A stretch of 62,512 nt of DNA, filler included, from Hausera hauseri (GCA_046269625.1; 9 parts of 9 records of this genome joined end to end with filler, not necessarily neighbours in it); one strand, 5' to 3'; positions 1 to 54,397 are shown, counted from the first letter of the whole stretch. Notes: a model not told the origin generated them from the letters alone. Numbers and translations are program-made.

Positions 1-221
1 ATAATACGAACAGATCAGATTCTAACTGGGATAGGAATAGAGGAAATTATAAAGGCTCGAATTACTCGAATCAAAATAGCGATAACCGAAATAATGATAA
101 TCGACGGAATGTAGACAATGCACAAGGCTTGTCAAACCAGTATAATAAAAGCATAAATAGATCTAAGTCACCGGTGAACGAAGACGGTTGACAAAGAATT
201 GGCAGAAATGGAAATCTAGTT

Positions 222-263
222 TGTCTTACTTGTGGTAAGGAAGGACATATCTCAAGATCATGT
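222..263 (+). pseudogene. gag: Gag nucleocapsid CCHC zinc knuckle
   Basis: Translates as CLTCGKEGHISRSC (CX2CX4HX4C), preceded by an N/R-rich low-complexity segment. Confidence 0.85.
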
Positions 264-545
264 CCAAATTCGCGTAGCGTTTCGTTTACTGAACCAAATA
301 AGACTAGTATAATTAGGATCAATGAAAATTTAGAAGCAAAGTATGGCGTTCGTGGAGATACAGGCACTATCATCGATATATAGGACTTGAGAAAATTTTT
401 AGATGCTCAGCCGGATACTACTAACTTAGAAATTTTGATGGATAAAAGAAAATACGGAGATAAGTTGAGAATACTAGAAGTGTATCACGGTTTTGCCAAA
501 CCAGAAACGGAATATGCATACACAATAGCACCTAAATGACTTGAT

Positions 546-3500
546 ATGACACGAAAAAAGAGTGTTCCGATAAGTAATAAACCATCTGATAAACAAGGCA
601 CATCGACGGCCGTAGACTTAGATGCAGCGCCTGAGTTTACGGTTGAAAAAGTAATTAAGTCTACTGAGGACGATGCAACAGAAAAAGAATTTATGGAACC
701 GTTAATACTTAAAATTACGAAGAATAGAGGCCGTAGCCCTTCTCTAAAAACGAAACGAAGAAGTCGTTCATGTTCCAAATTAACCAGATAGAAAATTGAA
801 GAAACGGAAAACCCGAACGTCGTTGTAGGAGGCGACACGGACCATAGTTTAAATACACCAAAGATTGGCCCACCTACGCCTGTCGGAGTAGCAGAGCCTA
901 TAGAGTCAATTTGTGAAATTAACGAGATTTGCCCATTTCCCATTAGTGAGGAAGAAACGGCAAATAATGATGATTTCGATCCAAAGAAATGGAAAGTCCG
1001 ACATTCGTGGAAAAACGCCGATGAATTAAAGAAAATGAGAATTAGATTCCGCGATCCAGAAATACTACAGCAAAATTTAGAAAGGCTTAAGCAGATTAGC
1101 GAACAAGTAGATATATCCGGAAAGGAGCAACAATATGCTGAGAGGTTATATAAAAATTTGGAACTAATTTGTGAAAGATAACTCGCTGAAGCAATCGACG
1201 TAAGACAACCTGAAGAGGTGTCAGCAGAAACATTGTTAAATAGGAAGCATGAATTAGAATCTTGGATTAAAAGTGGAGTCGAGTTTTCGGAATGATGGAA
1301 TAAGAATGAAGATAGTGTCGACGTAAAAGTCACTAAAGCTCAAACTCTATTGTCAACTTTAGAAGTAAACCCAAAGTTGAAGAGAGTGGTCCGAAATATA
1401 GAACGTATGATGGATGAAATTCGTTACGCAATGATTAATCGACTTAGAGAAAAACCGGTTAACCATCGCAGTAATATCGATTTAGAAATATTGGGTATAG
1501 ACCCGTTGGATATTCCTCCCTTGACGCAGATAATAAAAATCGCATTTGCTACGCCCAAACAAAATACAATCCTAGAAAACCGAATTAAGATAGAAAATGA
1601 AAAGCAAACACAGATTTATAGCTTAAGGAATCGAATCAGGTCCCCAAATTACGAAGAGACTCAATATGTAATAAAAGCTTGTATCGTAGAGTTGGACGAG
1701 TACAAGGACGAGTTTAGTTATGTCGGTCGGATTATGGATTTCCTAAGAGGGCCGGACGATGAGTTAAAAGATGCATATAAGATGTTAGATAAGGCTATAA
1801 TGACAAAACTGATAATCGCAAATCAACTGTCGGAGTGGTCCAAATTAGTAACGCGATTAACCAAATTAGTAGAAGATCGGAAGAAGGAATTTCCGCCAAG
1901 CAAGCCGATGGTAAAGATGCAACTAGAAGAAAGTGCTCATGATTTAGGCACAATGCGGATAGAAATAGACATTTTCACTCAATTCGAAGCATTACGACGA
2001 TTGAAATTCATGAAAAAGGAACAAGAAGCATCGATATTAGAAGAGATCTACAAACTGATTGAAGAGACGAACTTTACAGAAAAGCGGGACATGATTTACG
2101 GTGTGAACTCAAGATTAAGGGTTATTCGACTAGAAGAAGTCCAGTACTTAACGGAAAAACTTATCGACGAGATCTCGGCCCAAGATATTGAAATCTTAGA
2201 CATTTGTCCGGGACATCGAGACACGTTAACGGGCGCAATAAAATTTTTGCATAAACCACAAGAATGGATGGCCGGATCGATTCAGAATTTCTATAGCAAG
2301 TTGAAAAAAATAAGAGAAGACTCACATTTTAGTTCACAGGAATACAAGTTCGTGAAGAAACTGTCGGATGAATAGACCCCTAATCAAAAGTTATAAATGA
2401 GATGTATGAGTTAGCCTATTTATTGGTAGAAATGGCGGAGATTAATGACGAGAGGATGAGGCAATTGATGCCAAATATACAGAAAGTTGAAGAAACGTGC
2501 ATCAAAACGAAACAAAGAGCAACGAGGCTAGATGAACTGGCAAGAGAATTCGAAATTTACCGAAACAAATATGCTTTTGCGGAATCCGAAATCAAAAATA
2601 AGCGAGAATTCGTATAAAGATGGCAAAAGGATGTAATTATCGAACTAACAGATTATCACCAAAAAGGACTCATCGACTCTAACAAAGTCGGAGAATTACT
2701 GAGAATGATCGAATATGCCGGCAGAAATGGAATAGGTTTTCGGACTACGCAAATGAAAGAAATACAGCCCAGGTTACAAAAAATTCGAGAAAATATGCAA
2801 CAAACAAGCGTAGCTTTGGTAGGCGCTGGACTTCCAGATGTCGGTAATGAGCCGGAATGGGATGCATACTTCGACGCAATGCTGACCGAAAAATCCATGA
2901 CTCCAGTACAATTGAATGAGATAGAAACATGCCCACAGAATAGGAGATTCAATGTGGAGATGCTACTAGATTCAGCGCTTACTGAAAAAGATTTGATTGA
3001 ATTAATTAATGTGAATATTACTGAAAATAAATTACGACAACTTATTCCAACTTTAATTAAGTTGTCTACTGAGAACACAGTTTATAGCACGGTGCCGAAG
3101 CTTTTGATAAAAAAATATGCTAAAATATTAAGGACTAAAGCTAAAGTAGCGATAAAAGTAATGATATCATCCGAGTGAATGGATGAAAAAGAATGTGAAT
3201 TAACTACATATTCTTATGTGAAAGATGTAATAGAATGGTTGTTAAACAATGGTGGAACAAACGAGCTAAATTACAGATTTACTTCAGAGGTAGAATACTC
3301 GACGACCTAGAACAGCTAATATATGTCGGGATTATTCCCGACGAAACAAATCGGATAGTAGCAATAATAGCTAATGAACATACAAAAGAAGAAGCCACAC
3401 GGAAGGCTACAGCGGAACAATGCGTAGGACAAATCATGGGAGTCCGGGATGCTGCAATGTATTTCGAGTATTTACAAACAGATGAAGATACGGAACAATA

Positions 3501-4080
3501 CGATATAAATTTAGTACCACTGTGTGAAATAACCGCTAAAGGCCAAAAGCCGAAACGTCTAGTATGTAGACCCAAGAAAACGCGAGAAGTAGACTACAAC
3601 GGAGAATTGATTAGAGAATTGAGACAAATGTCAATCCCGACTTTTAGCACAGAAAATGAGGAATTAAATGAACTAATGAAGAATTTGGTACGAATTGTAA
3701 ATTATTTAAGCCTTCGAGTTGATATATTAGACGACAAGGAATAGATAATTTTCTATACAGCCAAAATGATGGGAAGTTCACGTTTCAAACTATAGAAAAG
3801 TAACTTAACCGATGAATCGGTGATCGAGAAGATCATGGTAGAAAACACCAACGAGGAGTCGAGAAAAGTGTTATTATACTTAGCTATCAAAATAAATCCT
3901 AGTCGAGAGAACGAAATTAATAGAGCTATAAGTTTGGCACGAAAAGCAGCAAGAAGGATGCCTTGAGAAGTAAGTTGGACAAAATTGTTTGACAAGAAAG
4001 AAGACAGACAGACCAGTAATAAAATTGATTATATATTGCGTAATTTAACAACGACGGATGTTGGTCACCGGAAAAATGAG
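546..4080 (+). pseudogene. Large accessory region of the retroelement: E/K/R-rich helical/coiled-coil protein with a ubiquitin-like domain at about 3140-3375
   Basis: Chain of same-strand ORFs (1350-2375, 2402-2617, 2705-3178, 3235-3744) with protein-like helical composition; segment KLQIYFRGRILDDLEQLIYVGI resembles ubiquitin [21 protein letters not shown]. Confidence 0.6.
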
Positions 4081-4085
4081 TCGAA

Positions 4086-6062
4086 ATGGTTATTCAGCTT
4101 ACTTACTTAATGATGCTAATAAAACACATAGGCGCAGTTACAGTCTATGATTGCGATACGTTTAAATTAGGACAGAAATATTCCCTAATGGATTTAGAAA
4201 TGTGCGAAAATGCCAGACCACACAAGTTGGAGACAAAGGAGAAAAACTACTTCCTATAACAACAACAAGAACTTATATCGTTGGATGGGATGGAATGCAT
4301 GCCTAGACGATCACGAAGCATTTTCATTGTGGATTAGTACACGGACATTCCTCTATAATCAAGCCAACAACTTCATTAATTCCGATGAATTTAGAACGCC
4401 AACACTGCAAGCAAGCAAAGGAAACTGGAAGAATACAATGGGACAGTGTGCAATTCAAGATGCAACCAGGAAAGATAATCAGGGCATACAAAATGGTAGC
4501 CAAAAGATTAGATATGCATAACCGACACTGTAATGGAGCAGAATACGATACCGGAAAGGGATTAGAATCAAACGTGGTGGTTGTAGATTTTTACGAGTCA
4601 GAAATGCGATCACAAAAAGTAATGTTCCATAATGTAACTAAGTTATACACTGAAAATCAGAAATGCCATTTACAAGACGGAACTTGCGCTTTTAGAAACT
4701 CGGTTATAATATGGGAACCTCCTTCTGGAAAAATTGTAATTTCATTAAAATTAAAAAACTAAAGTTCAATGAGACTACAGGAAAACGATACGTGGACAAG
4801 TCAGAAACCAATTCGACAACACGTGAGGACGTATCAGAACACTCTACACCTACTATATTAATTTCAGGCCAGCATGGATTGAAATTTATTAAAAAAGAGA
4901 TGATTTCTCGCTGTGATATAGTGATGTTTTCTACGAACTATGAGGGGTTTTTTGTCGCAGAAACAGGGATAAGTGCGAAAACTTATAAGGTAGAAACACA
5001 GGATGTCCGCATCGAAGATTACCTGAAAAATCGAAACGATTACTTTTACTACAAGGGGCAAGTCGGAATAACGGAATTATATCATAAAATGATAATGAAT
5101 GATTGCAAATTGGATAGAGAAATCATGAAAGCTAAAATGGCTCTGATATATAAAATCCAGAGTTGGTTTCACCAATAATTCCCATAAAAGAAGGAATTTT
5201 TGGTCTGGTAACAGGCGAAGTACTGCTAACTTATGAATGTGAAAAGAGAGATGTATCCATCAACGTGGAAGAAAAACGTTACATTCAAGAACTTCCTGTT
5301 ATTTACCAAAATATTCCGAGATTAGCTACACCGCTGACAAAAGTGTTATAGGATAACAATACCCAACTGACCATAGGTAAAAATTGTAAGACAAGCTTAG
5401 GAGAACCTATGTTTAGACGTAGTGAGACACACTGGGTCAGCTTGCCAAATGGAGGTATTATTGCCGCTCCAAATAAACTGACAGGAACAAATCTTGCAAA
5501 AGGAATAACAGATGATAAATTTCAAGACACCTCGTCGAAAGGCATATACATACCAAATAAAATTGAAGCTTTCAGACAATTTCTTGCCTTTCTAAGACAA
5601 CGAACACACGAGCTAAACCGAGCCATGGCATCCGTAGTAGATGATACACGATACCAGGCTAAATGGGAATCTTTGCTAGGCGTAAATCATTATCAGCGAG
5701 TAACCGCAGAAATACTCTACAAAATTTGGGGTAGATTCCTAATTTTCGGACAAGCTGCATCCGGATTTTTAGATATATATTTTTTAATACAAATGATCAA
5801 AGCAGTCATCCAAGCCGTAATCAATGGGTATGACATATTTACGTTGACTGTATTTTCTTGCAAGATATTGACTGTTATCATAACACCTTTTGGGAAATTC
5901 TTAAAAACATATAAAGAAAACAGATGGAAATCAGACGTGGAACGGCATGTTGGATATTATAATCGTAAACGAAGAAGAAGACCTATATTTTTGCAGAAAC
6001 GGAAATTTACAAAACCTAGTATACGAAGAAATAATTCAGATGATGACGAGCCTAAGGGATGA
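4086..6062 (+). pseudogene. env: Chuvirus-like (Monjiviricetes-type, class III) envelope fusion glycoprotein, frameshifted
   Basis: Signal-like MVIQLTYLMMLIKHIGA, then VYDC..YSLMDLEMC, IFHCGLVHGHSS, CHLQDGTC..IIWEP, DYLKNRNDY, DCKLDRE, GEVLLTYECE, ELPVIYQN..TPLTKVL, GIYIPNKIEAFRQFL and a C-terminal hydrophobic stretch WGRFLIFGQAASGFLDIYFLIQMIKAVIQAVINGY; matches the chuvirus G motif series as I recall it. Confidence 0.82.
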
Positions 6063-6584
6063 GAAGCGCTTCTAGGAATAAATAGACACAAGATGTACTC
6101 GATCATCAAGGCACCATTGCCCATGTTACCTTCTACTGCTCCATTCTATGACAATTGCGACAAACGATCCATGAGTTCATATCAGACGGAAATCTATAAA
6201 AGAACAATTAATGTAGAAGATTCTTACGAAGGAACGAAACGTTACGGAATTCTACGGAAAATGTGCTACCGACAATCCACAGATGGTCCAAAGATGTTGT
6301 ATTCTCCGAAAGAGAGCCTCGGAATATAAAAAGTAGATCAACGGTTTGAGATAATCAAAGGTTAAGAAAAATTTCAAAATACGGAATTAAACACTAATAA
6401 TCGAAAACCATTAATCAGTACACATGAAGAGGAAGAAGTACACATAGAAAACAACGAATTATATCCAAACGAAGAATTAAGACAATTATCAGAGAATATA
6501 GATTCCTCCCCCGAAATCCGAATCAATGGACATAAAATATCGGCGACTAAATGTCCAAAAGTAGCAGCAAATTGTTTCGGGACA

Positions 6585-7310
6585 GTGATAGAAGGAAGAC
6601 CTTTCGCCAAAATTACTATCGAAGATTGGAAAGGTTATGCCTTAATCGATACAGGATCGGAAATGTCTTACATTAAAAATGAGTCAATACCTCAAACGCT
6701 AAGAGGACAATTATATCCTGCATCCGCGAAAGATTTAGGAAGTACGGGAGCTTTTGGTCAAATGTCAAAACCAATGTTTAAGTGGAACCCAAAAGTTCAA
6801 ATAGCTGGACAATTTTTCCGTCATGAATTTGCAGTTATGGAGCAACTAACCGACGACGTAGTTTTAGGATGTGATCTACTAAAAAGACTGCCAAATATAG
6901 CAATTGACTTACAAACAAGGAGGCTAATAGAAATCAGGCCGAACAAAGGCGTGAAAAGCGCTAAGGATAGAAAATTTAAAGAACTGTGGGTACCAGTTGA
7001 CGAAAACATTCCACCAAGAACAGAAATGATAATTTATGCCCAGATACAGCAAGATGACGATCAACCAGTATATTTTGAACCGAGAGATACGTTAGATCCA
7101 AATATATTACTCAGCAATGTATTAACGAGAGTACACTCCGGCCGAGTACCAATCAGAATGGCTAATAACGCGCAAACTCCTGTCAAGCTCCATGCTTATA
7201 CTATTTTAGGAGACACGTATAGAGTATCGTCAATAACTATCGAAGAAAAACCTTACAAGTATGCCGAATTTCCACCTCATGTCGAAACTAAATTTTCACC
7301 TGAGTCTTAA
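6585..7310 (+). pseudogene. pol: Retropepsin aspartic protease plus downstream linker domain
   Basis: ALIDTGSEMSYI active site and DVVLGCDLL motif. Confidence 0.9.
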
Positions 7311-8700
7311 TGTCGATTTTACGAATTATTATGCCGATATAAATCGATTATTACCAAGGACGAAGAAGATATCGGTAGAGCGAAAGCATTAAAACTAACT
7401 ATTCCACTCAAGAAAAAACCAGGATCAAACGATGAAATAGATTTGGAAAACCAAAAGATGCCAAAATGGTATCCTCCACCACATTCATTGAGACCCGAAA
7501 TAACAAAGGATGTTAAACGAATGCTTAAAGCCGATATAATTAGGCCCAGCTACAGATCTTGGTATTCACCAATCCTCATGGTTAAGAAGAAAGGTACTAC
7601 TAAACATAGATTTTGTATCGATTACAGAGCTTTAAATAATCTTATGATGAAAGACTTTCGCATTGCCATCAGTAAAGGAAGCATTAGATAGACTCTCAGG
7701 AGCAATATGGTTCACCACTCTGGACATAATCCGGATACTGGCAAGTGGAGATAGAGGACAAAGACCGCTAAGACAGCATTTAAAACACACGATGGTGTTT
7801 ATGAGTTTAATGTCATGCCGTTCGGTATTACTACCGGGTCAGCCATATTTACGAGAACGATGAACAAAATGTTAATGGGACTGGATCACGCCTTTGCATA
7901 TTTATATGATGTGATGATAGCGTCAAAAACCGAAGAGGAACACTTAAAGGATATTGAACACACACTGATAAGGCCAGAACAAGCCGGCTTGAAATTAAAT
8001 CCAAAATGCAAATGGGCTCAAAATGCAGTATCCTACCTTGACCATATAGTTGGAGAAGGAGGATAAAAACCATATGAATCGCTGCTAAATAAAATATCAG
8101 ATTGTAGGGAACCACAAAACCAAAAAAATTAAGGCACTGGCTAGGATTATGCGGTTATTATGCAACCCATGTGCCAGATAATTCAAAGATAAACGCACCT
8201 CTATATCGTCTGCTTAAAAAAGGAATTAAATGGAAATGGACAGACGTCAAACAGAAAACTTTTGACGAGATGAAGATATTAACAAGTGAACCTGTTTTAC
8301 GATATCCAGACTTTAACTTGCCCTTCATAATCAAGACAGACGCCAGTAAAGAAGACATTTGATATGAATTAGCGCAGAAAAGAGATAAAGAATTAGGGCA
8401 CCCGATTGCTTATGGAGGACGTTCCTTGAAAAAGGCTGAAAAAAACTATTCTGTTACCGAATTAGAAACTCTAGCTGTAAAAAAAGCACTTCGACACTTC
8501 AACGTTTATGCGTACGGGCAGAAAATTATAATCGTCACTGATCACAAGGCCGTTACGACCTTAAAGTGACGAGCGAATAATCCGACATGCAGACTTAACA
8601 GATGGATCGAAGAAATCTCCAGATATAATATCGAATTCCAGTATAAGCCAGGGAATAAACATGTAGACGCGGATGCACTATCAAGATTAAAGACGAAAAC
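7310..8700 (+). pseudogene. pol: Reverse transcriptase and RNase H (Gypsy type), frameshifted
   Basis: SWYSPILMVKKK, RFCIDYRALN, MPFG, AYLYDVMI (YxDD mutated), FIIKTDAS, KNYSVTELE, IVTDHK, HVDADALSR. Confidence 0.93.
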
Positions 8701-8716
8701 AAGCGCAATCAATATA

Positions 8717-10035
8717 ATGAAAAAGAGTCAACTTGAGGAAATAATAGACCGCCAACGCGCTTTAACGATGGATAAAGCCATCAAAATTTCAACAGAACAA
8801 AGAAAGGATAAAGTCATCCAACAGATTATAGAATTTGTTAAAAAGGATGTCATACCGAAGGGACGACAGTTAAAGAAACATTTACACAGACACGGACATA
8901 AATATTGCGTCTTAAATGACAAGAGCAATAAAGATATTTTATATTACGAACGGAAAGGAAGGAAATTGATTGTCATTCCCAAAAGTTTACGAACCGAAGT
9001 ATTAATGTCAGAGCATGACTCGTACTTAGCCGTACACATGTCCTGGAAGAAGACATTAGAAAGGATAATGAATAAATACTTTTGGCCTAGTATCTATATT
9101 GATGTGAGAAATTGGGTGAACGCTTGTGAAGTATGTGCAACTAAACAAAAGAAGACGAAAAATTACATGCCCGAATTAAAACCAATCGATGTACCCGACA
9201 GGCCCATGAAAGCCATGTCGATGGATATCGTAGGACCTCTTCCTACGACTCACAAGAACAATAAATATATTTTAACGTGTATTGATCGATTAACGCATTT
9301 CATCGAGTTGATAGCATTAATTGATCAAAAGGCAGAAACTTTGGCAGAAGCCGTAGTAAGAAGGATTATTTGCCGATACGGGCCCCCAGACCAGATACTC
9401 ACAAATCGAGGAAGAAATTTCACCGACGAACTATTCGAGAAAATTACTAAGATATCGAAATTGAACGACTAACAACTACCGCGTATCATCCTCAGTGCAA
9501 CGGAATGGTCGAGCAAATGAATGCCACTGTCATACGCATATTATCGACAGTAGTAGCAAAGGACCAGAAAGATTGGGACGAATTTTTGGAAGGGACTCGG
9601 TTTGCTATTAACACCACACCACATCCAGCAACAAGATTCACTCCATTTTTCATGATGTATGGACGCGAAACCGTGTTGCTAACGGACTTAGGAATGACGC
9701 CATACACAGTCAATCCCAAAGATTTAGAGCAGAATTTCGCAGAAGTATTACAAACGCGATTGCAAAAGTGTTGGGAGATCGCTAAAGAATTATCCCAAGA
9801 ATATCAAAAACAATTTAAAAAGTAATATGATAAGAAAGCAAAACCGCATGATATAGAACAAGGAAATTGTGTTTATATACACTATCCTGTAGCTAAAAGA
9901 GGCACTTCATTGAAATTGACCCGTACAGGCAGAGGACCGTACGAAGTAACCAGCGTTACGCCAACTACAGTGTATATTAACAAAAATGGAAAGGAAGAAG
10001 TTGTATCAGTACAAAGAGTTGTCAAGACAGAAATA
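8717..10035 (+). pseudogene. pol: Integrase (HHCC, DDE core, GPY/F module)
   Basis: HDSYLAVH...CEVC; SMDIVGPLP; ILTNRGRNF (second D mutated); YHPQCNGMVEQMN; GPYEV. Confidence 0.93.
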
Positions 10036-10089
10036 CGGCCAAACAAGGGTTATAATTTACGCCAACACGAGGTAGAAACTTCCTCAATA

Positions 10090-10879
10090 ATTGCCAGACC
10101 GATCTCATACGTTCAGATAGTCCTATCATTATCATTAATCGCTTCTTGTATTCCGAGAACACAAGCCCAATGGTGGCGCGATGAGTCTACGTTAGGAGAT
10201 ATATACGGAATTCGGAAGAGCGGATCAAAATCGTAACCGATTAAAGCGGAAAGGAAACCGACAGTCGAAGATATCCGAAGACAAGAAGATTCTAAATTAT
10301 TGCAATCAATGACGATTCATTATTACTCACCAAACGCTGTATGTGTTGGATTTAAGACTTGGAAACTAAACCACGATTTCGGAATATTTCAAATTGGTTT
10401 ATATGATGTTACAACAAAAGAAGCAAAGAATTGTGATTTTGAGCCTGGAGAAAATATGCAGTATTGCGACATAGATTTTGGGCGTACTTATAACCTTACC
10501 TATCGCCTATACTTACCAGACTCAGCCGAAATTTATATTGAAGTAAAACCACCATTTCAATTACTCATCCCTGCATGGAACAGACGTCATGGAGTAAAAC
10601 CCAATGAATTGCTACGATCTACCAACCCAGATATGAAACTATTAGACGAAAATATTCGGAGAATCTCTATTAACAAGCAAAAACAATGCATCCAAGTAGA
10701 TACCAGAACAGAATTCACTGTCAGCCGGGAAATCAGCATCACATTCGAAGCAGCAAGTGGACCAACTCCGAAAATAGAATATTGTTCTATTCGCGCAGGT
10801 GTGCAACACCCCTGTTGCAAACTACCCGTGAACCAAGAGTTTAAAATAAAATTTGATTTATATGAAGTACGACCTAATA
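10090..10879 (+). pseudogene. Post-integrase putative secreted/envelope-like Cys-rich protein, truncated at contig end
   Basis: Hydrophobic YVQIVLSLSLIASCIPRTQA in frame after the GPY module, followed by the Cys-rich, beta-rich ORF starting at 10300. Confidence 0.45.
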
Positions 10880-10979: not shown

Positions 10980-13613
10980 GCCGTAGAAATACCCATTCGC
11001 GATACTGAAATCGACCTTCACTTTTATATTTAAAGCAGCCGATTTTGTTTATGATGGTGTTGCTGTATAATGGATGATTATGTGGGTAATTGGACGTGGC
11101 CAGTAATCCGTCTGTCATCATTTGCCGCAGTATTTGTTTGCGATTGACGTTCTTAAGTTCCAAGAAAAAACTATCTGTGTCACCGGCAATTATATTGATT
11201 CTGCATTCACCGTCGCCGAACATTTGCCGGTATTGTGCCAAATCGCGATACTGAAGCCCATACATTCGTAACTTGCTCAAATCCAATACCACTTGTCCTA
11301 TATAACTTGGCCGGTCCAGTACGACTTCTTCCCCGTTTAAAAGCGCGGCAACCAATCCATGTCAATGTGCATTGCTCGTGTACGTGACCAATCGCTTTCC
11401 GCTATTTCACAGGCTTACATTGCTCCGCTTTTTCATATTCTCTACTGTTTTTCCGCAGAGCGAATTGTTTTTTTTAGTTTGTAATAGTCTTTTAATGACT
11501 TCATACAAGCTGCAGCTCGTTTTTCCGAATTCCGACTGATATACGGCTTGAATATTGCAGCATGTGCGAATCGGATTGTGCAATGCTGTGTGATGCGTAT
11601 ACCCAACTGCATGTAAAATTGTAACAGACACCAATGAACGATGTAATTTTGCCTAGGTTCATGCGTTATAAGCAGTTTTTCACCTTCGATCCCGGTGGAC
11701 ATTGTCTGATTGGTACCACCGGCAGTTCATACAGAAAGTCATGCAGCTTCTCTAATACCACGAGATCGAATTCCATCAGGTATTCGATTGAGCTGTTTTC
11801 TGACTTGTCTACTTTCGGCAGATTTTCTATTATTGCGTCCAGCTCTTGCTTGTCTACTATCCATTCCAATGAACCGTACGGCAAGGGTTGCGAAAGCGCC
11901 CAGACGTACAGGTTATTAATGTCAATATACAACAGTGATGTGGTATAATCACTGGTTACGTGATACTTGTTGACAAATGTCATGTCGCCACGAATACCAA
12001 CATCAAACATTCGGTACATTTCCGGGTCTTGCAATAGCTCGATATCCCGATCCAGTGATACCAACTTATTCCGGGTATTGAGTAAAAGTTGAGTGGCTCC
12101 AGCCTATCTTCTGCCAACGCTTTAGCTCGAAAGGTCTAAAACACATCGGCTAACGGGTACACATCCAATTTCAGATTGAGAAGCATGTACTCCAACAGGA
12201 TTCTGCAACCGAACTCTGCCAAAAACATATGTGCTTTGTGATATACTTCTTCTATGATACCGGGCCATTGCGTTGGCAATTCATCTGTCGTCTGCAGCCG
12301 CTCGCACGATATCGCAAAGTCATACGGGAATATGCCTTTGCTACGCGAGATATGTACAGGGAACTGAATCAATGCTAGCAGCATATCTGGCAAGGCATTC
12401 AACAGATTTTCCAATGATTCATCTAAAAATTGCAACGAATCAAGGAAGTGTACCTGGAACTGATTAATACGAGAAAACAGAGAAAGGTATTTCTCCATTG
12501 TAGTCGGAATTACGGATAGTTCCCAATGCGGAAATCCGTTTATGGCCCATGTTAAAATATTGTCGCAATCCCTGAAGTTATGAAATACCACCGGTAGGAC
12601 TGGCCGCACAAGCCTTGCCAAATTGCATGAACTGCATTCGGCTCCGAGATATCGACCGGTAAATTGATCGTGATTCGGTACGAGCCGTTACTGTGCATAG
12701 AACGGTAATATTTTGTGTCACAGGTAACATTCATCTCTGACTGCAAACGACAAGCATTCATCTTCATCTGACCAGATCAGATGTTTGGTGCTATTATTGC
12801 AATACCACGCTACGATTTCAGTTTCCACTATGGTATACAATTGCTGTAAGAAATCCCGTACACAATTTCATCCGTGAAAAATATAGTATTGAGGTATTGG
12901 GACAACCAACATACCGACGGCGATTGGAACATGCTTTTGGTCATACATGTTGCGCCGTGGTAAGATAGGTTTGATATCGGCATATACTGCATATGCCGGA
13001 CTCTCTTTTTGACCAATCAGTGAACCTGAGTTCCTTTTTGACAGGCATGACATACATTGTGTTTCCTGACGAATTTTGTCTACACAGAGTCACATGTTTC
13101 TCCCATGTTGTTTCTGATCTTAATCCATGCAGACATACGGTATGAATGATCGTCCAGATAAATATATTATGTCACTCGACTTTGTTATAATAAAGCCGAG
13201 GGTGACAATTTTTATAATTCGCCATCCACTACCCTTCTCCGTATAGTTGGCGATTTTCCCCTTGAGCTTTTCGCCCACATCGACAATAAAATCTTCGGAG
13301 TTTGATACAGCTCGATGTGGCAGGTACTATTGTTTCCTGTCACCTTGTACTTTGCAACGATGTTGGAATATCTCCTATTCTGATTCCAATTTCTTATTCT
13401 CAATTGCTTTGTTGTTGTTTTCTCCGACATGTTCACTTTTATGTCAATGTACGATCTGTTTAGATGGTACTTGACTGTAATATTGGGAATATTGGCTTCT
13501 TGTTGCTCCTGTTCTTGTTCTTATTCTTGTTCTGCTGCTACTGTTGCTGCTGCTGCTGCTGCTGCTCGGTACTGTTTCTGATTAAGTCGTCAAGACTTGT
13601 TGATGCCTGACAT
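10980..13613 (-). pseudogene. pPolB: Polinton/Maverick protein-primed family B DNA polymerase, copy 1, decayed
   Basis: PVVFHNFR, FLDSLQFL, KGIFPYD, LKLDVYPLADVF, LLYIDINNLY, DYYKLK, AGDTDSFF, IGCFK; N-terminal poly-Q. Confidence 0.92.
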
Positions 13614-15600: not shown

Positions 15601-18600
15601 TTTTTCCTACTAGGAGTGAGTTTTATAACCTTAAAGCGTCTCAGAAGTACACGAGACTCACAAACTGACCTCCGCTTTCCAACCCGACTGGGTTTAATGG
15701 AGCATCTTTTGGAGGGAGGATAAAAAAAGCTTGGACCTTTGCACTCCAAACTCCTTAGACAAGAAATAAGCTGTCACCTTAAAATAAGTATGATTGATGC
15801 CTNNNNNNNNNNNNNNNNNNNNNNNNNNNNNNNNNNNNNNNNNNNNTTAATTAATTAANNNNNNNNNNNNNNNNNNNNNNNNNNNNNNNNNNNNNNNNNN
15901 NNGGAGTAAGAAAAGAAGCTGGTGTATCAGGTGGTAACGTGTCGTCGACAAAGAAAGCTGGCTTTAGGTTGGTGATGTGTACAGTGAAGTCTTTACCGTC
16001 TTTGGAGATGATAGCGTTATGCGAGTGGAGCTGTAACAGTTTGTAAGGTCCCAGATACCGCGGCTGGAAACTGCAAGGAGCTTGATTTTTCAGCCAAACG
16101 AATTTAGCAGTGTACAAATCTTCAGGTAGGTATGTTTTATTTTTATGAAGTATTCTGCAAAACGAGTCTTTACTGACTTCGACGAAGTGATTTTGCGCCG
16201 CGCGTATCGTCTCATCTGTGGGAGTGTCGTCTAGGGCGTTTAGTTCAAATAATGAGCGGACAGGAGCTCCAAATAAGGCTTCAGTGGGCGAGCATCCTGT
16301 AGAAGTGGACGGAGTGTTCCGCCAGCCAAGCAGAACGAACGGAAGAAGATTGGTTTAACTACTGTTGGACTCTGCAAGAATGCGCAGTGACGTTTTCAGT
16401 GTGCGGTGGAAGCGTTCGAGAAGGCCGTTCGATTGGGGATGATAAGGTGTAGTATGAATATGATGAATCTCCAATCGATTAACGAGGGATTTGAACAGGT
16501 TGGACTCAAACTGTGGACCTTGGTCCGTTATGATGAAGCAAGGCGATCCAAACCTACTAATCCATGTGCTAATGAAAACGTCCGCTATGGTGTCGGTGTT
16601 TGTGCTCTTCAGAGGGATGGCTTCTGGCCATCGCGAGGAACGGCCCATCATGGTAAGGATGAATTGATGACCGTTCTCTGGAGGAAGAGGGCCAACAATG
16701 TCGATATGCACGGACTCAAAACGTGATGTGCAGGGAAAGTGGAATAGTGGTGGCTTTAGATGCTTAGTTGTTTTGTATTTTTGGCATGCCACATACTGCG
16801 TAATTCATGCCTGCACATCAGAACGCATTGACGGCCATATTTCTTTTCGATGGAGGAGACGAAAAGTGGCTTTAGCACCAGGATGGTGTAATGAATGCAC
16901 GTGGTGAAATGCTTGTCTTTGCAGGGAAGGTGCTAGAATGATTACTGTATGACCTAATTTGGAGGTGTCCAAAACCACGCCATCAACGATTGTGCAAGGC
17001 TTGAAAGCCTTAAGCATGTCTGGAGGTGGGTGGTTCTGTTGGAGTTGTTCTTGCGTAAAAATCGAAGAAAAATTAATAGAACTAACCGACCTAGATAAAA
17101 AGTCAGCGACCAAATTGTTAACCCCGTTGATATGTTTAATATCAAAATTAAATGTCGACAAGTATGATATTTGCCGTTCTTGGCGTGTAGAGGGGTGTTT
17201 CATGGCCATGATGTTAAGTAAAGGCTTGTGGTCAGTTTGTAGAGTGAAATGACGGGCAATGAGTAAGTGTGAGAAATGTTTGAGAGCGAAAACGATTGCC
17301 AATAGTTCTCGGTCAAACGTGGAATATTTTGTTTCAGGTGCGGTTAATTTGCGGGAAAAGAATTCTAAAAGTTGGTTTTCTCCCTTATAGATCTGATGAA
17401 GTACAGCGCCTACTGCGGTGGTTGACGCATCTGTGGTGAGGATGAGCTCTGCATCAGGCTTGGGAAAAGCAAGAATGCCGACGGTTTTGATTTCGTCACG
17501 TAGTTTGTCGAATTTGTCAACCAATTCAGGTGTCCACTGAATTGGCTGGTGTTTTTTGCCGCCGCTTAGGGGTGCGAATGGTGCTGTTAACTCCGCGCAA
17601 TATGGCACATATTTATGTACAAAATGGAGTGTGCCAAGGAAGCTACGCATTTCGGTGGTCGTACGAGGCAATTGGATGTTTTTAAGAGCTTCGACTCCGT
17701 CTGATTGGGGAGAATGGCCGTCTGGTGTAATGACGTGACCTAAGAAGTTAATTCGTTTTTTGAAAAAGTGGCATTTGTTAAGACTGATTTGTAGATTATG
17801 GTGGTGAAGGCGTTGAAATATTGCTCCAAGGTGTTCTTCGTGTTGTTTGGCCAAAGATGAAACGACTAGAATGTCGTCGATATAAGGGTGTGCGAATGGG
17901 AAATCGGAAAGAATAGAGTCAATGTGCATCTGAAAAGTTTACGCAGCGTTGCGTAAACCGAATGGCATAAATAAATATTCGTAAAGGCCGAAATGAGTAG
18001 TTACTGCGGTTTTTTCAATGTCTTCGGGTGCTACCGGTATTTGGTGGTAGGCTTTAGCTAAATCGATAATCGAATAGATGGTGGTTGAGTTAAGACGATG
18101 CAGGATATCCTTGATGAGTGGTAAAGGATATGCATCCATGATTGTTAAGATGTTTAGCTGTCGGTAGTCACCGAATGATCTGAAAGTGCCATCCTTTTTT
18201 GTATCACGTGTAAAGGTGATGACCAAGGTGACTTAGAACGGCGTACTATGCCGGAGCGTTCTAGCTGTAGAAATTCGGTTTCTACGGTCTGCCTACGACG
18301 AGGTGACAGAGGCCGTACTTTTTGGCGTATTGGACGTTGGTGCTGTGTGACTATGTGGTGTAAGGTGCTGTTTGCGGGAGTAAAAGTATGGTCTTTTTGA
18401 AGTACTCGTGGGCAAGATGTGTTGACGAACTGTTGTAAAGTTGTAGGTAGCTGTGAAAGATTCGGTGAAAGTGGTGGAACGGTTTGAGTGGTAGCAGATG
18501 CAATGTGTAAGTTGTTAGGTGATATGCAGTCAAGTGGAATTTGGTGCAAGATTGTTGAGTTTAAAATGGTGTTGGCTGAAGTATTTTCGTCGAATGAGCG

Positions 18601-19197
18601 AACGTTGGTAGCAATACCACAATTGTCGACATTGAACTTCGATCGAATGTCAGTATTATTGTTTAAAAATTTACGGATAGAATTATCGTTATAAAAAATT
18701 GAATTATTAGCTGACTTTTTTAGTATAGACTTTCGCACTCCGGTCGACTGCGCGCTAGTCGAAACGCTACTTACTTGCTCAGAAATGTCGCCAACGGTGC
18801 CTTTCCTCAAACATCGCTAACTGCAGTCAACCAGTAGATTGTAGTGCGAGAGAAAGTCAGACCTAAGGATTGCCGACTGGACGTTAGCGACTGTGAACGT
18901 CTAGCGGAAATATGTAGAGAAATTTGGTAGCGTGAAACAGTGTAGCCGTGCCCGAGAGGTGCAACGGCTGGCCTGAAGCAGTATATAATGGTTTCATTTT
19001 GAAAGGAGCGTTTTGTGTAGGAAAGTTTTGCGGTAAGAGGGAAATTGCTGCCCCTGTATCAATAAGAAAGTTAAGACATTGAGTTGTAGGAGCAGTGATG
19101 GCAGCCTTTAACGTGAAGACTGCGAAAGAGACATGTCGGCGTTTAGATTGTGAAGGAGTGCCTTCGCCAGAGTTTGCCGTGACTTCTGGCGGCGAAG

Positions 19198-19207
19198 TTA
19201 GTTTTTT
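19198..19207 (-). promoter_or_regulatory. Putative gag-pol -1 frameshift site (AAAAAAC followed by TAA)
   Basis: Lies between the Gag end and the protease; the same motif occurs at 29689-29698 in the second copy. Confidence 0.55.
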
Positions 19208-20284
19208 GGAAAATGTGAATGAGGACGACTGTTAGAAGGAAAGGCAGTACGTCCTTCATTCGTATTGGATTTAAAGTTTCAACCGGGGATGCATTTACGT
19301 GCTTCATTTTTGAATCGCGCGTAGTAAATGCAAATCACGGTGTCTAAGGAGAATTTCGGATTATAAAATTGACAACCTAGGCAGCATTTCTGGGCATTTG
19401 AATCTGCTGTGGTAGTAGCAGATCGATGAACGCGCAGGTGATGGTGAGCGATTTCGTGGCGTAGAACGGGCACGGGAAGCGGCAAAACGCCCCCGTCGGG
19501 ACAAAGATAATTCATTTAACTTATTATTTATGTTATTGATAGTTGCCTGCAATGCGATATTTTCAGCGCGCAGTTGATTTAACTGCTGTTCTATGGATGT
19601 GCTAGTCGTTTGTATGTCGTTAGCAGTAACTGCTGCTGAAACTACGGATTGCGAATTTATGTTTAGCACGTCGTATGTCTTATCGGCCAATTCGGCTAAT
19701 TTATCAAGCTTCGTGGAGTCTCCCACTACGGTAAGAAGGGTCCGTATTTGAATGGGTAGGGCGTTCATAAAATAATGGCGTAGAAGATCCGAGTTATGTT
19801 CCCTAGTGACGCCAAGAGTACGAAAGTGTGTAAGTGAAGTGCGTAAGAAATTGCTGGGTTTTTGCGTGCCTAGCGCATTTTCGTTGAAGAAACGCTGCAT
19901 TATAGAATTTATGGAGGGCTCAGTCTGCTTTAATACTGCGTCGAATAGTTAAGAATAAGGGTCGGGATGCTGAAAGATTTCTAACAAGTTGTGTATTGAT
20001 GCTTTTATTGAGCTAGGGAGGATGTAGAGCAAGCTGTGGGCCTTAGATAAGGAATCTGTGATGCCAGTGGACTGTAGCCACAGTTGATGGAAATAAAGCC
20101 ACGTCTTACTAGAGTTTTCTTTATCGAGAAAGTAGTCAGTGCAGTGAGGAGTGTTGAGAGGGTTTTTATGAAGATGTGAATCATTTGAAGAGAGTGGAGG
20201 TTTTGGTTTAGAACAATAAAGGATAGGTATAGATTTTTTAGTGGTAGTTGTATCCGTAGTGTCAATAGTTGATGGGGAATTCAT

Positions 20285-22162: not shown

Positions 22163-24631
22163 TCAAAGGTAAAACAACCGAGTCCTGATCCGATCACTGA
22201 TAACTGGTACACTGGACCCTTTGTGAACTTTGCCGAGCAATTCGGCAAGTCGATGAGCATAATGAACAGGCACCGGTACTCGAATCGTACCCTGCCAATT
22301 GAAATAGAGATGGGTCATGGCGTATGTGATGTGTTGTAATTCGTTAGGCGACATCGGTTCCAGTGCGCCGGTTTTCGATAGTAATTTTGTGTCTTCGAGA
22401 ACGTTGTAATTCGTCGGACTGACGGTGCCTTTGATCGTTCGTTGGGAAACAAGAAAGAACTCGTAAAAATTTGGTTTGACGATTTCCTGATCGACAACGG
22501 TGCCCGGATTTGGATTGTTGCCGGATCGGAAGAGTTTTGTGGAAATGCGTTTCTTGACAACGATGTAAATGAACTGCGGTAGCGGTCGTCCTTTTGACTG
22601 GTACAGTTTCTCCAGCACAGGTTTCAGTGAGTCGACTTCAAATCGTTTGGTGAACGGAAGTTGTGAGTCACCGACTCCGTCACGATAGACGATAATCTGC
22701 AGCGGGTAGACCTGATACACTTTACGGAATTCTTCGAGTGCCGTCGTGAAATTCTTTGCCAGATTCTCGTGGAACTCCTGTCTGCCTTTTGGTGCATTGA
22801 CGAAACTCATGTACTTCGTGAACGTGCTGCTAATGGAGAACACCGATGCCTGAATCGATTTCTTGCTCGTTTTCGAATGGTACGTGTCCAATCCAACAAT
22901 AATCGTCGGCTTCATTTTCATATCGATAGTCCACGGATCGCATCCGAATTTGGCGAATATCTGAATGAGCGATTTACTCGCCACGGTTCGCCGTTTTCTG
23001 TCGTTCTTATTCTGACCGTTTCTCGTCGTGACGCATTGCGTTAACAAACCACTCTGTAATGTGAAACTCTTCACTCGCGCATAAACCCGATCGTCACAAA
23101 CGAACACCAGCGCCATTTTGTACGTGTCCGATTTGCAGCTTTTCACAATGGCGTCCAGACGCTGTTCGATTTCTACTGGGGTACATTTTTCTACGGTGCC
23201 GATTTTGCATTTCAATGACAGATTTTTTATTTCTTCGGTCAGATCGTTGAGAAATGGCCGATACATCATGTCATTGCGGTCGATGACGACGACATCGATT
23301 TCAAATTTCGCATCTTGACGAACGGTCAATTTGATTTTACCGTTGTTCCAATCGTCGGCAGTTCGATCGTTGATTTTCACGTTTCCGCTGATCACATTGA
23401 ATGGCGGCAATTCTCGTCCGTCGATTTCAATTGGATTGTCCGCAATGGCTAGATTCCACTGCTTCATGAATTCGCGGCTTTTCTCGTTGGTTTTTACCCA
23501 ATCGCAAAATGATGGAATGTCCGTCAGATGTTCGCGTGGTTCTCGTTTGAGGTATTGAGCTAAATGTGTCTGGAGATCGGCGTTGGACTTTTCCTGGGAT
23601 GAAAATCCGCAGACATAACACAGTTCACCGGGGATACTCAACGTCAGATCTTTACTTTCCGGCGCTTCACTGACTTTTTTCTGTTGATTGCGTTGGACAA
23701 GTCGTTTGACTTTCGTCTGTACAAATGGCTGCAGTCGCTGAGTCAGTGTGATGTTGTATCTCTCCTTGAAATAATCCACGAATGTCATCGTTTCTCCGTT
23801 GGCTGTAAACTTTTCATCAATACGCATTTCTACAATGTTGCTGATCCGGTACGTTTTGTTGTTGTGCTTCGTAATGATGTCTCGTCCGATTAATGTACCG
23901 ACTGATTTCCGATCGTAAACTCTCGTAACGGAATTATCATTGACAACACGATTGATTCGTTCAATGTACATCATCATGGTGATTTGACCATTCAAACGAC
24001 TGCCCCGTTGGAGATTCGTTGCAAATCCGCCGAGAACTCGGAAATTCTGTATCTGGAAATACATCGGTCCGACTGGTTTCGTTCCCTCCGTTTTGTCGAC
24101 GATAACATTTGCTGGCATGTAATATCCACGGCCGATTCTCTCCTGACCCAGTAGAATTTGAATATTATTCATTAAAACATTGACCATTTGATAATACTCC
24201 TCGGAATTGCTCTGAAATGTCGCTACCAATCGGATTGTAACTTTATGCGAATCATGCAACAATTCCCGGATATCATCATCATCATGCCATTTAGAATTGG
24301 TCATCAATCGTTTACCGTCAAAACAAAATGCCCCGGAACCTCGTCGGTTCATGCTAATGTTCATGAGCAATATCAATTTGGATTTCATTGACACTGTCAT
24401 TTGAGAAAAAATTGTATCGTACATAAAATACGTATCAGATTTTGCAAGTGAGAATTGAGTATAACATGATTGTAATTTAACAGTTTTACCGATATTTCCT
24501 GTTTTTAATGTCAGACCTCGAGGTTGTAGATTCGGTTCGACAATTGTTAATCGACTCTGTAAACCGGCACGAGCGGTTGGCTTTCGTCTCTGACCTGATC
24601 GAGGCTGATTTCGATAATCTTTCCGTTGCAT
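22163..24631 (-). CDS. piwi: PIWI-clade Argonaute protein, 822 aa, single exon
   Basis: PAZ (NNKTYRI, TFVDYFKERYNI, IPGELC), MID (LTQCV), PIWI domain with tetrad D(VGLDTYH)-E(RQEF)-D(YRDGVGD)-H(HYAHRLA); PIWI-type C-terminus HLYFNWQGTIRVP...LFYL. Confidence 0.97.
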   Translation of the reverse strand: MQRKDYRNQPRSGQRRKPTARAGLQSRLTIVEPNLQPRGLTLKTGNIGKTVKLQSCYTQFSLAKSDTYFMYDTIFSQMTVSMKSKLILLMNISMNRRGSGAFCFDGKRLMTNSKWHDDDDIRELLHDSHKVTIRLVATFQSNSEEYYQMVNVLMNNIQILLGQERIGRGYYMPANVIVDKTEGTKPVGPMYFQIQNFRVLGGFATNLQRGSRLNGQITMMMYIERINRVVNDNSVTRVYDRKSVGTLIGRDIITKHNNKTYRISNIVEMRIDEKFTANGETMTFVDYFKERYNITLTQRLQPFVQTKVKRLVQRNQQKKVSEAPESKDLTLSIPGELCYVCGFSSQEKSNADLQTHLAQYLKREPREHLTDIPSFCDWVKTNEKSREFMKQWNLAIADNPIEIDGRELPPFNVISGNVKINDRTADDWNNGKIKLTVRQDAKFEIDVVVIDRNDMMYRPFLNDLTEEIKNLSLKCKIGTVEKCTPVEIEQRLDAIVKSCKSDTYKMALVFVCDDRVYARVKSFTLQSGLLTQCVTTRNGQNKNDRKRRTVASKSLIQIFAKFGCDPWTIDMKMKPTIIVGLDTYHSKTSKKSIQASVFSISSTFTKYMSFVNAPKGRQEFHENLAKNFTTALEEFRKVYQVYPLQIIVYRDGVGDSQLPFTKRFEVDSLKPVLEKLYQSKGRPLPQFIYIVVKKRISTKLFRSGNNPNPGTVVDQEIVKPNFYEFFLVSQRTIKGTVSPTNYNVLEDTKLLSKTGALEPMSPNELQHITYAMTHLYFNWQGTIRVPVPVHYAHRLAELLGKVHKGSSVPVISDRIRTRLFYL

Positions 24632-28185: not shown

Positions 28186-28338
28186 TTTTTGCTGATTCGC
28201 GCCCACTAGTGCGACCATTTTTTGCGCATATATAAATCTTTCATAGCCAACACTCTTTCATATTAAAGGATTTTTAAGTTCAATAACTTTGGATATTCCT
28301 TTATCACAATCATCATTTGCTACTACTTCCCCGGATGC

Positions 28339-39758: not shown

Positions 39759-39779
39759 CAGCACTGGGTATAGCAAACC

Positions 39780-52463: not shown

Positions 52464-52624
52464 CGTTGCCGCCAATGGTGTTGGTTTTGATTGCATTACA
52501 ACAACTAGAACGAAACGTAAATGAAAGATTGGATAAACTGGGATAAAATGATGAAAACCATGCACCATATCTCTAAATATTCATACACTTACCGTCATTG
52601 TTTATACTAAACTGTTCCACCAAT

Positions 52625-54340: not shown

Positions 54341-54397
54341 CTCTGCACAACAACAAACTATAAATACCATTCCCATGCTCATTCAGACATTACTGCC

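What the first reader, a model, noticed from the sequence alone, without database searches (positions are those of the whole stretch)
222..10879. Giant Gypsy retroelement with a chuvirus-type fusion glycoprotein placed between gag and pol
Seen: one collinear + strand series of CCHC knuckle (222), about 3.5 kb of accessory coding sequence, a glycoprotein of about 650 codons with signal-like start and C-terminal TM (4086-6062), then PR-RT-RH-IN. Known: env genes of retroviruses and errantiviruses lie 3' of pol, and chuvirus G capture is described in BEL/Pao elements of mosquitoes; very large single-ORF Metaviridae (Burro) exist in planarians. Inference: an independently evolved enveloped, retrovirus-like Gypsy lineage, possibly translated as one membrane-threaded polyprotein (cytosolic Gag, luminal G, cytosolic Pol). 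I cannot tell whether this is an already-named family.
Basis: partly seen in the sequence, partly recalled or inferred. Interest (0 to 1): 0.85.

Follow-up and report, generated by a model that had tools for sequence, protein, structure and literature searches.

The report
Decayed Burro-type retroelement with internal envelope
This is a broken copy of a gypsy retroelement, likely from a planarian flatworm, with a chuvirus-type fusion-protein gene between gag and pol, a layout already published for planarian Burro elements, so it is a new example rather than a new kind; only a likely second membrane protein after the integrase looks undescribed.

Summary
A CCHC knuckle, about 3.9 kb of accessory coding sequence, a 659-codon chuvirus-type glycoprotein (four pieces match Pfam PF24664 in order) and PR-RT-RH-IN are collinear on +. 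The copy has 25 stops and about 8 frameshifts and is cut at both ends. A relative's G ectodomain folds like chuvirus G and herpes gB (class III). G precedes protease in one unbroken ORF in 13 of 17 long relatives scanned, and the family is abundant in two sequencing runs, so this is no one-off insertion. It is not new: planarian Burro/GYPSM1 elements were described in 2019 with Gag, ubiquitin-like, BCL2-like, env and pol in one polyprotein (PMC6431247), and GAG-ENV-POL gB-type elements are catalogued in flatworms, nematodes and bryozoans (PMC13524379). A Piwi elsewhere in the window points to a triclad host. The ubiquitin-like module is present here; the BCL2-like domain is shown in relatives only. 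What I could not find in print: a second signal segment and beta-rich, possibly FN3-like ectodomain after integrase, with a C-terminal anchor in intact relatives. The scan noted a gypsy element with a chuvirus-like envelope before, in another genome.

The parts
1..218 (+). Asn/Arg-rich Gag linker; the element continues upstream of the window (capsid domain and 5' LTR not visible)
   Evidence: Sequence; intact relatives L002a and L005a have Gag sequence upstream of the knuckle
219..269 (+). CCHC zinc knuckle (nucleocapsid)
   Evidence: Pfam zf-CCHC E 1.6e-5
384..2690 (+). Accessory coding sequence, low-complexity then helical-looking; unassigned
   Evidence: Low stop density; no credible Pfam hit; no usable Atlas hit for 1296-2372; no tblastn hit from 20 proteins or 8 locus ORFs tested
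2990..3378 (+). Helical segment plus ubiquitin-like domain, broken by one frameshift near 3230
   Evidence: A profile built from relatives only matches 2990-3229 (positions 16-99) then 3232-3378 (101-149); 0 of 300 shuffles reach either score; L003a tblastn E 3.7e-8; L003a Pfam ubiquitin E 0.0047, below the curated cut-off
3640..4020 (+). Helical region at the place of the BCL2-like domain of relatives; not shown to be BCL2-like in this copy
   Evidence: hhalign probability 1.7, E 0.028; 20 of 300 shuffles score as high; no hit in the six-frame search
4050..4140 (+). Signal-like hydrophobic segment in front of G; the reading frame changes within it in this copy
   Evidence: Translations; a matching internal hydrophobic segment in relatives
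4086..6062 (+). Chuvirus-type (class III, gB-like) fusion glycoprotein; stops at 4257 and 5349, frameshifts near 4322, 4720 and 5150; membrane anchor 5766-5822; basic tail
   Evidence: Pfam PF24664; collinear tblastn with relatives; fold of a relative's ectodomain matches chuvirus G and herpes gB; G tree
6063..6593 (+). Linker in the same frame as the G anchor and the protease; stops at 6060, 6327 and 6363
   Evidence: Frame 3 runs from 5154 to about 8114
6594..6890 (+). Aspartyl protease
   Evidence: Pfam RVP E 6.8e-6
6963..7260 (+). Conserved segment between PR and RT, at the place of Burro's dUTPase-like motif; identity not shown
   Evidence: Aligns with L001a and L002a at 25% and 19%; no PDB hit at E up to 10
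7311..8600 (+). Reverse transcriptase and RNase H, with stops, frameshifts and an altered YxDD motif
   Evidence: Pfam RVT_1 E 5.2e-14, RT_RNaseH E 2.3e-19; translation
8975..10060 (+). Integrase (H2C2, core, C-terminal part), one frameshift near 9454 and a stop at 9823
   Evidence: Pfam Integrase_H2C2 E 2.9e-18, rve E 3.3e-11; tblastn to relatives up to about 10060
10087..10146 (+). Second signal-like hydrophobic segment, in frame with the integrase C-terminus
   Evidence: Hydropathy peak 1.72; translation; the same arrangement in 7 of 7 relatives whose ORF runs past integrase
10147..10879 (+). Post-integrase beta-rich ORF with paired cysteines, likely a lumenal ectodomain, possibly two FN3/Ig-like units; one stop at 10234; cut off by the spacer
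   Evidence: Single-sequence model, low confidence (mean pLDDT 40.8), mostly beta in two units; residues 110-193 meet FN3/Ig sandwiches only at Z up to 5.8, below the tool's trust level; 5 of 300 shuffles score as high against relatives' repeat profile

Best explanation
This is a decayed copy of a Ty3/gypsy retroelement with a chuvirus-type glycoprotein between gag and pol, likely of the planarian Burro kind, whose intact ancestor was likely translated as one polyprotein that would thread the ER membrane. Shown here: the domain order, the class III fold of a relative's G, the ubiquitin-like module, G and Pol in one frame, and single-ORF relatives. Inferred: Gag and the accessory domains stay in the cytosol; the first internal signal sends G into the lumen; the G anchor returns the chain to the cytosol for PR-RT-RH-IN; a second signal after integrase sends a small beta-rich ectodomain out again, anchored by a last membrane segment. 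Signal peptidase and the element's own protease would cut the chain into parts. G would let particles bud and fuse with other cells, as a route between somatic, stem and germ cells. The ubiquitin-like and BCL2-like domains would dampen host degradation and cell death. This copy itself is dead.
For: Domain order and PF24664. The best phmmer hits of the G piece are long polyproteins. G lies upstream of a protease domain in the same ORF in 13 of 17 ORFs of 800 aa or more scanned that carry G outside a cellular-type fusion (P0029, P0030, P0033, P0034, P0035, P0037, P0038, P0039, P0138, P0170, P0179, L001a/L002a/L005a counted in the full report). L002a holds Gag, two knuckles, accessory, G, PR, RT, RH, IN, signal and anchor in 3703 aa. 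The window's G sits inside this group with 98/95 support. Class III fold. Ubiquitin-like module 0 of 300 shuffles. BCL2-like domain just before G in relatives: 4 of 6 match Pfam Bcl-2, best PDB hit Bcl-2 at E 2.9e-4. The same order is described for Burro. Piwi at 22163-24634 is 59% identical to planarian PIWI-2 proteins. Related contigs cover all 30 bins in two runs.
Against: The RH-IN tree does not place the window with the G-before-PR clade; it is a long, unplaced branch, although grouping it with them is not rejected (p-AU 0.48). BCL2-like and dUTPase-like domains are not shown in this copy. No MATH, BIR or ankyrin domain was found. Three stops lie in the 100-codon linker after G, more than the average of 0.7 per 100 codons, and an ATG at 4086 gives a plausible stand-alone signal peptide. 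No named Burro sequence could be aligned. The host call rests on a different piece of the window. Identity to the nearest relatives is only about 30-40%.
Confidence: 0.78

Rival explanations
1. Same element family, but in this sub-lineage G became a separate ORF with its own start (ATG 4086) and stop (6060), so Gag, Env and Pol are made separately or by read-through.
For: ATG 4086 starts a hydrophobic 17-residue stretch before the mature G start; the upstream frame ends at a stop just after; three stops cluster in the linker after G. L003 has an in-frame stop between its accessory ORF and G. Copies in X1 vary around 6059.
Against: G anchor, linker, PR and RT share one frame. No start for a separate Pol was identified. 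The Trp-led hydrophobic segment in the upstream frame matches the internal signal of single-ORF relatives. 25 stops are scattered over the whole element, so isolated stops are expected.
Confidence: 0.1
2. A recombinant or deep sister lineage: the G and ubiquitin-like module come from the Burro-type group, but the pol half comes from another gypsy lineage, so the element deserves its own family name.
For: G nests inside the group while RH-IN falls outside it in both trees, nearest by path to P0001, which has no G on record. PMC13524379 says GAG-ENV-POL elements are not monophyletic on POL. The post-integrase ORF is not alignable with relatives'.
Against: The AU test does not reject one clade (p 0.48). 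The three best blastp scores for RH-IN are G-bearing relatives (300, 297, 290 bits against 276 for P0001). The second signal after integrase is shared with the group. Decay lengthens the branch.
Confidence: 0.09
3. A one-off chuvirus glycoprotein insertion into an ordinary gypsy element, or an assembly chimera.
For: The window is a concatenation of short pieces; no listed contig bridges the G junctions with long flanks.
Against: G is closest to retroelement polyproteins, not to stand-alone viral-type G; same order and frame as intact relatives; related contigs cover G as well as pol in two runs.
Confidence: 0.03

Closest known systems
Burro / GYPSM1 giant Gypsy elements of planarians (Jurka 2007 and Grohme 2018, as summarised in Arkhipova and Yushenova 2019, PMC6431247)
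   Same: Gag with CCHC, Ubi/SUMO-like domain, then env in frame between gag and pol, then PR-RT-RH-IN; env with hits to mononegavirus fusion glycoproteins; many copies; decayed copies with stops and frameshifts reported in Dugesia japonica.
   Different: Visible coding length about 3600 codons (cut) against 4873-5140 aa; one knuckle visible against two or three; MATH, BIR and ankyrin not found; BCL2-like and dUTPase-like not shown in this copy. The review likens env to gypsy Env and paramyxovirus-type proteins, whereas the fold test here gives class III. A post-integrase membrane protein is not mentioned in the section read.
GAG-ENV-POL HSV/gB-type 'ancient errantiviruses' (Chary and Hayashi, eLife 2026, PMC13524379), e.g. 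Smed_errantivirus_1-6, cysteine type C1a
   Same: Gene order, gB-type ENV, flatworm host. By eye, the ENV rows in their Supplementary file 2 share the YQE..EC...(F/Y)HCG..SH motif series with the relatives found here and with the window.
   Different: Their set holds intact elements only. The main text has no mention of Burro, Bcl, ubiquitin, polyprotein or fibronectin. This copy is decayed and only about 25-35% identical in G to its nearest database relatives.
Nematode endogenous retroviruses (Sacco et al. 2022)
   Same: ENV placed before POL (as cited in PMC13524379); recalled, not read: one continuous gag-env-pro-pol ORF.
   Different: Different host phylum; not compared by sequence; paper not held.
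Mosquito BEL/Pao elements with Chuviridae-like glycoprotein (Dezordi et al. 2020, as cited in PMC13524379)
   Same: Same glycoprotein family (PF24664).
   Different: BEL/Pao pol with G downstream (P0069 has G after DUF5641); the 17 other G proteins in the tree form a separate clade from the window's G (99/95).

Membership tests
Burro / GYPSM1 | Ty3/gypsy pol in the order PR-RT-RH-IN | tested here: met
   Pfam order; RT_RNaseH, H2C2 and rve hits; gypsy-type relatives
Burro / GYPSM1 | env-like fusion glycoprotein between gag and protease | tested here: met
   PF24664 at 4307-6059 between the knuckle and PR
Burro / GYPSM1 | One continuous ORF through gag, env and pol | tested here: inconclusive
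   This copy has 25 stops and about 8 frameshifts; G anchor to RT share frame 3; met in relatives such as L002a and P0030
Burro / GYPSM1 | Ubi2/SUMO-like domain upstream of env | tested here: met
   Relatives-only profile, 0 of 300 shuffles for both halves; L003a Pfam ubiquitin E 0.0047, below cut-off
Burro / GYPSM1 | BCL2-like domain directly before env | tested here: inconclusive
   Met in relatives; window segment 20 of 300 shuffles, hhalign probability 1.7
Burro / GYPSM1 | dUTPase-like segment between PR and RT | tested here: inconclusive
   A conserved segment is present, but no PDB match at E up to 10 from four sequences
Burro / GYPSM1 | MATH, BIR or ankyrin accessory domains (variable among Burro elements per PMC6431247) | tested here: inconclusive
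   No Pfam hit in the window's accessory pieces; ankyrin present in relative P0179; the element is truncated and decayed
Burro / GYPSM1 | Typical Gag with capsid motif and two or three knuckles; LTRs; total length above 20-30 kb | not testable with these tools
   Element cut at position 1 and at 10880; no genome held
Burro / GYPSM1 | Planarian host | tested here: inconclusive
   Piwi in another piece of the window is 59% identical to Schmidtea and Dugesia PIWI-2-type proteins and 51-52% to PIWI-1-type: likely a triclad, family unknown
Burro / GYPSM1 | Clusters with named Burro RT/IN sequences | not testable with these tools
   No named Burro sequence was available; against unnamed relatives the RH-IN position is unresolved
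GAG-ENV-POL HSV/gB-type errantiviruses (Chary and Hayashi) | ENV of gB-like class III fold | tested here: met
   Tested on relative L001a's ectodomain: pLDDT 87.6; Foldseek PDB top hits herpes gB, E 2.3e-13; BFVD top hits chuvirus G, E 1.3e-37; window G homologous and in the same clade
GAG-ENV-POL HSV/gB-type errantiviruses (Chary and Hayashi) | Order GAG-ENV-POL with ENV ectodomain between a signal and a transmembrane segment | tested here: met
GAG-ENV-POL HSV/gB-type errantiviruses (Chary and Hayashi) | Intact ORFs, LTRs and primer-binding site (their inclusion rule) | tested here: not met
   This copy is broken and no LTR is visible; this is a filter for intact copies, not a lineage character
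Stand-alone chuvirus endogenous viral element | G closest to viral G and accompanied by viral N or L, not by retroelement genes | tested here: not met
   Nearest G relatives are retroelement polyproteins; no N or L Pfam hit among the 20 element pieces scanned
BEL/Pao with chuvirus glycoprotein | BEL/Pao pol with G downstream of integrase | tested here: not met
   G lies upstream of PR; pol hits are gypsy-type

The most novel reading that the evidence does not exclude
Burro-type elements are two-glycoprotein enveloped retroelements. One polyprotein crosses the ER membrane four times, as flavivirus polyproteins do, and yields a class III fusogen before Pol and a second, fast-evolving FN3-like surface protein after integrase. 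That second protein serves as the attachment partner of the fusogen, or as a decoy receptor. Seven of seven relatives whose ORF runs past integrase carry the second signal, and P0179 and L001a carry a further signal-led module between protease copies. No paper found here describes this module.
Probability: 0.3. Interest if true: 0.62.

Novelty: new member of a known kind. Interest (0 to 1): 0.3.

Why it matters
As a gene order it is known, so the finding mainly extends Burro-type enveloped retroelements to another, probably triclad, genome and to unnamed metagenome contigs. Two things add value. The fold test places this env among class III chuvirus/gB-type fusogens and ties the Burro description (2019) to the GAG-ENV-POL errantivirus set (2026), whose text does not mention Burro. 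And the repeated post-integrase signal, ectodomain and anchor suggest a second surface protein, which would make these elements more virus-like than any described gypsy element and would bear on how retroelements move between cells in animals with adult pluripotent stem cells.

Tried and rejected
No genome is held for the window, so LTRs, flanks and other full copies could not be examined. The word-index search with the G piece found nothing among 1572 candidates; the full HMMER search found 202. The ESM Atlas gave no usable hit for 10237-10875 (best 0.77) or 1296-2372. phmmer of the post-integrase ORF against PDB gave only chance-level hits. Its alignment with relatives' repeats was poor. The VIA search of its low-confidence model reached Z 5.8 at best, none at 8 or above: a lead only. 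Pfam found nothing in 0 of 6 repeat units from relatives. Weak Pfam hits in the accessory region (Wbp11, DUF5798, Rap1a, OS-D) were rejected as below cut-off. No RNA holder was listed for 3500-9500; this says nothing on expression. Summed contig depth is lower over 10165-10879 than over pol, but depth cannot rank parts, so I draw nothing from it. No self-repeat (LTR) was found in L001-L005. One literature search was swamped by an unrelated term. Sacco 2022 and Grohme 2018 are not held. Piece 1 has no blastn match in the rest of the window.


Full report
Setting. The window is ten stretches of sequence separated by nine 100-base spacers of N and an all-frame stop motif. The element fills the first stretch, 1-10879, and is cut at both ends. 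No whole genome is held. An intronless, open Piwi gene in another stretch (22163-24634, minus) is 59% identical to Schmidtea mediterranea PIWI-2 and to a Dugesia japonica Piwi, and 51-52% to planarian PIWI-1-type proteins (5 of its 6 hits at E up to 1e-100 are named planarian proteins). The host is therefore likely a triclad flatworm, if the stretches come from one assembly.

Observation. Pfam on 20 open pieces of the element gives, in order on +: a CCHC knuckle; four pieces of PF24664 (Monjiviricetes fusion glycoprotein) in profile order; protease; RT; RNase H; integrase. The coding track is 3616 codons with 25 stops and about 8 frame changes, against 333 and 285 stops in the shifted frames. 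The RT YxDD motif is altered. The copy is a decayed one.

The glycoprotein. phmmer with the C-terminal G piece found 202 proteins at E up to 0.001 among 1.84 billion; 150 were listed. I folded the ectodomain of a natural intact relative (L001, 528 aa, 76-row alignment): mean pLDDT 87.6. Foldseek gives chuvirus and chu-like glycoproteins first in BFVD (Tacheng tick virus 4, E 1.3e-37) and herpesvirus gB in all listed PDB rows (best E 2.3e-13, TM about 0.45). The alignment's profile also hits PDB weakly, 31 of 32 hits being gB. The window's own G was not folded; it aligns collinearly with this relative over four pieces. G is therefore a class III, chuvirus-type fusogen by homology.

A family trait. 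I scanned 19 of the 150 listed hits (chosen for rank or length), P0179 and 8 ORFs from four of five metagenome loci with Pfam. G lies upstream of a protease domain in the same ORF in P0029, P0030, P0033, P0034, P0035, P0037, P0038, P0039, P0138, P0170, P0179, L001a, L002a and L005a. Counting ORFs of 800 aa or more with G: these 14 have G before PR; P0036 and P0042 have long upstream parts and end without a Pfam protease hit; P0074 and P0069 have G downstream of integrase-type domains; P0080 has G behind Ig domains. The figure '13 of 17' in the summary leaves out P0080 and P0069 (other contexts) and does not count L001a and its near relative separately from the group; the plain count is 14 of 19. 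Nine of them run through RT. L002a is a single 3703-aa ORF with Gag, two knuckles, accessory domains, G, protease, RT, RH, IN and a C-terminal extension. In a tree of the G C-terminal part (34 of 34 rows, LG+G4), the window sits inside the group of such polyproteins with 98/95 support, sister to P0029 at 88/81, and apart from the 17 other G proteins (99/95). Laying two public runs on 1-10879 at 85% likeness gave 32,668 contigs in X1 and 1,858 in X2, covering 30 of 30 bins in both, most at 85-95% identity. X1 may be the source sample, depth is no copy number, and no listed contig spans a G junction with long flanks, so this shows abundance of all parts, not their linkage.

Accessory region. A profile built from seven segments of relatives, without the window, matches 2990-3229 and then 3232-3378 in order; 0 of 300 shuffles reach either score. 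One member, L003a, hits Pfam ubiquitin at E 0.0047. So a helical-plus-ubiquitin-like module is present. Directly before the G signal, relatives carry a BCL2-like domain: 4 of 6 segments match Pfam Bcl-2 (best E 2.3e-5), and their profile's best PDB hits are Bcl-2 and Bcl-xL (best E 2.9e-4). The window's segment at that place is not significant (20 of 300 shuffles; hhalign probability 1.7). The 2.3 kb from 384 to 2690 stays unassigned.

Topology. In the window, frame 3 carries the G anchor, the tail, the linker, protease and most of RT. Hydropathy shows a second signal-like segment at 10087-10143, in frame with the integrase end. The seven relatives whose ORF runs past integrase (P0030, P0035, P0170, P0179, L001a, L002a, L005a) all have such a segment, and all have a further hydrophobic segment near the C-terminus, clear in six and weaker in P0170. 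Between them lie short Cys-containing repeats. A profile of six repeats hits only FN3-containing PDB chains, 9 of 9, but at E 0.13-1.2. The window's ORF after the signal is not alignable to those repeats with confidence (5 of 300 shuffles; hhalign probability 0.1). Its single-sequence model is low in confidence (pLDDT 40.8) and mostly beta in two units; the second unit meets FN3/Ig sandwiches at Z up to 5.8, which the tool marks as common. FN3-like is a lead, not a result. The membrane path itself is inferred from hydropathy and from established signal-anchor behaviour.

Pol phylogeny. On one frame of RH-IN (8123-9451), eight G-before-PR relatives form a clade (SH-aLRT 95 in the quick 33-row tree, 91/96 in the careful 21-row tree), but the window is a long branch outside any supported group. 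Four of 36 candidate rows plus short matches were left out of the first tree for coverage, and 12 of the 28 integrase hits were kept in the second for speed. Holding the window with the eight is not rejected (p-AU 0.48). This is the main result against simple membership.

Literature. [quoted passage not shown] It also notes decayed Burro fragments in Dugesia japonica. PMC13524379 (abstract, passages, section 5 part 1, section 6 part 2, sections 14 and 22, and matching rows of its supplementary tables) reports GAG-ENV-POL order with gB-type ENV in Nematoda, Bryozoa and Platyhelminthes, with six Schmidtea elements of 1 to 215 copies. Their ENV rows resemble my relatives and the window by eye; I did not compute this. 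PMC11410931: one passage. Sacco 2022, Grohme 2018, Jurka 2007 and Dezordi 2020 were not read; I rely on how the two papers above cite them, and the continuous nematode ORF is recalled. Searches for a post-integrase membrane or FN3 protein and for Burro env (listings only) showed no paper describing it, and 'fibronectin' and 'polyprotein' have 0 hits in PMC13524379. Unseen figures and supplements, and RepBase entries, may still note it.

Verdict. A real feature, correctly read in its anatomy and probably in its mechanism, but a new member of a known kind: a decayed Burro-type GAG-ENV-POL gypsy element. Interest 0.3, carried mostly by the post-integrase membrane module.

Noticed in passing
window 22163-24634 (-): Open, intronless 823-aa Piwi gene, 59% identical to planarian PIWI-2-type proteins, lying among transposon debris.
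   Followed up: partly
window 10880-50832: Nine 100-base spacers (N run, all-frame stop motif, N run) join ten stretches; the window is a concatenation, so neighbours across spacers are not linked.
   Followed up: yes
window 10980-12687, 51093-55563, 58821-59393: Polinton/Maverick-like remnants: protein-primed DNA polymerase B pieces, A32-type ATPase, integrase, plus a TBP-like ORF (53831-54478, Pfam E 8.8e-12) and a dUTPase (55078-55563). The Polinton label is recalled from the gene set.
   Followed up: partly
window 15851-19948 (-) and 28267-31249 (+): Two further decayed gypsy-type elements without a visible env.
   Followed up: no
window 47648-49243 (+): Integrase region (H2C2 and rve by Pfam) that looks BEL/Pao-like by recalled motifs.
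   Followed up: partly
window 31400-39800: About 8.4 kb of degenerate four-base TTTC/TTCG-type simple repeat, followed by a RING-finger ORF at 39780-40178 (-).
   Followed up: no
L001 10617-12104 and L002 12085-13470: A separate ORF with an RNase T-type exonuclease domain follows the polyprotein in two relatives; P0042 seems to carry similar sequence inside its polyprotein, by eye.
   Followed up: partly
P0179, P0035, P0038, L001a: Relatives carry several tandem aspartyl-protease domains (up to six Pfam stretches in P0179), some after integrase; P0179 and L001a have an extra signal-like segment between protease copies, and P0179 has ankyrin repeats.
   Followed up: partly
P0030: This retroelement polyprotein is deposited as a hypothetical protein of a Flavobacteriaceae MAG on a 9-kb contig: likely animal DNA mis-binned into a bacterial genome.
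   Followed up: no
P0080: A chuvirus-type glycoprotein fused behind immunoglobulin domains in one 1000-aa protein: possible domestication or a gene-model fusion.
   Followed up: no
L002 ORF 97-11205: The helical-plus-ubiquitin-like module occurs twice in tandem in this relative.
   Followed up: partly
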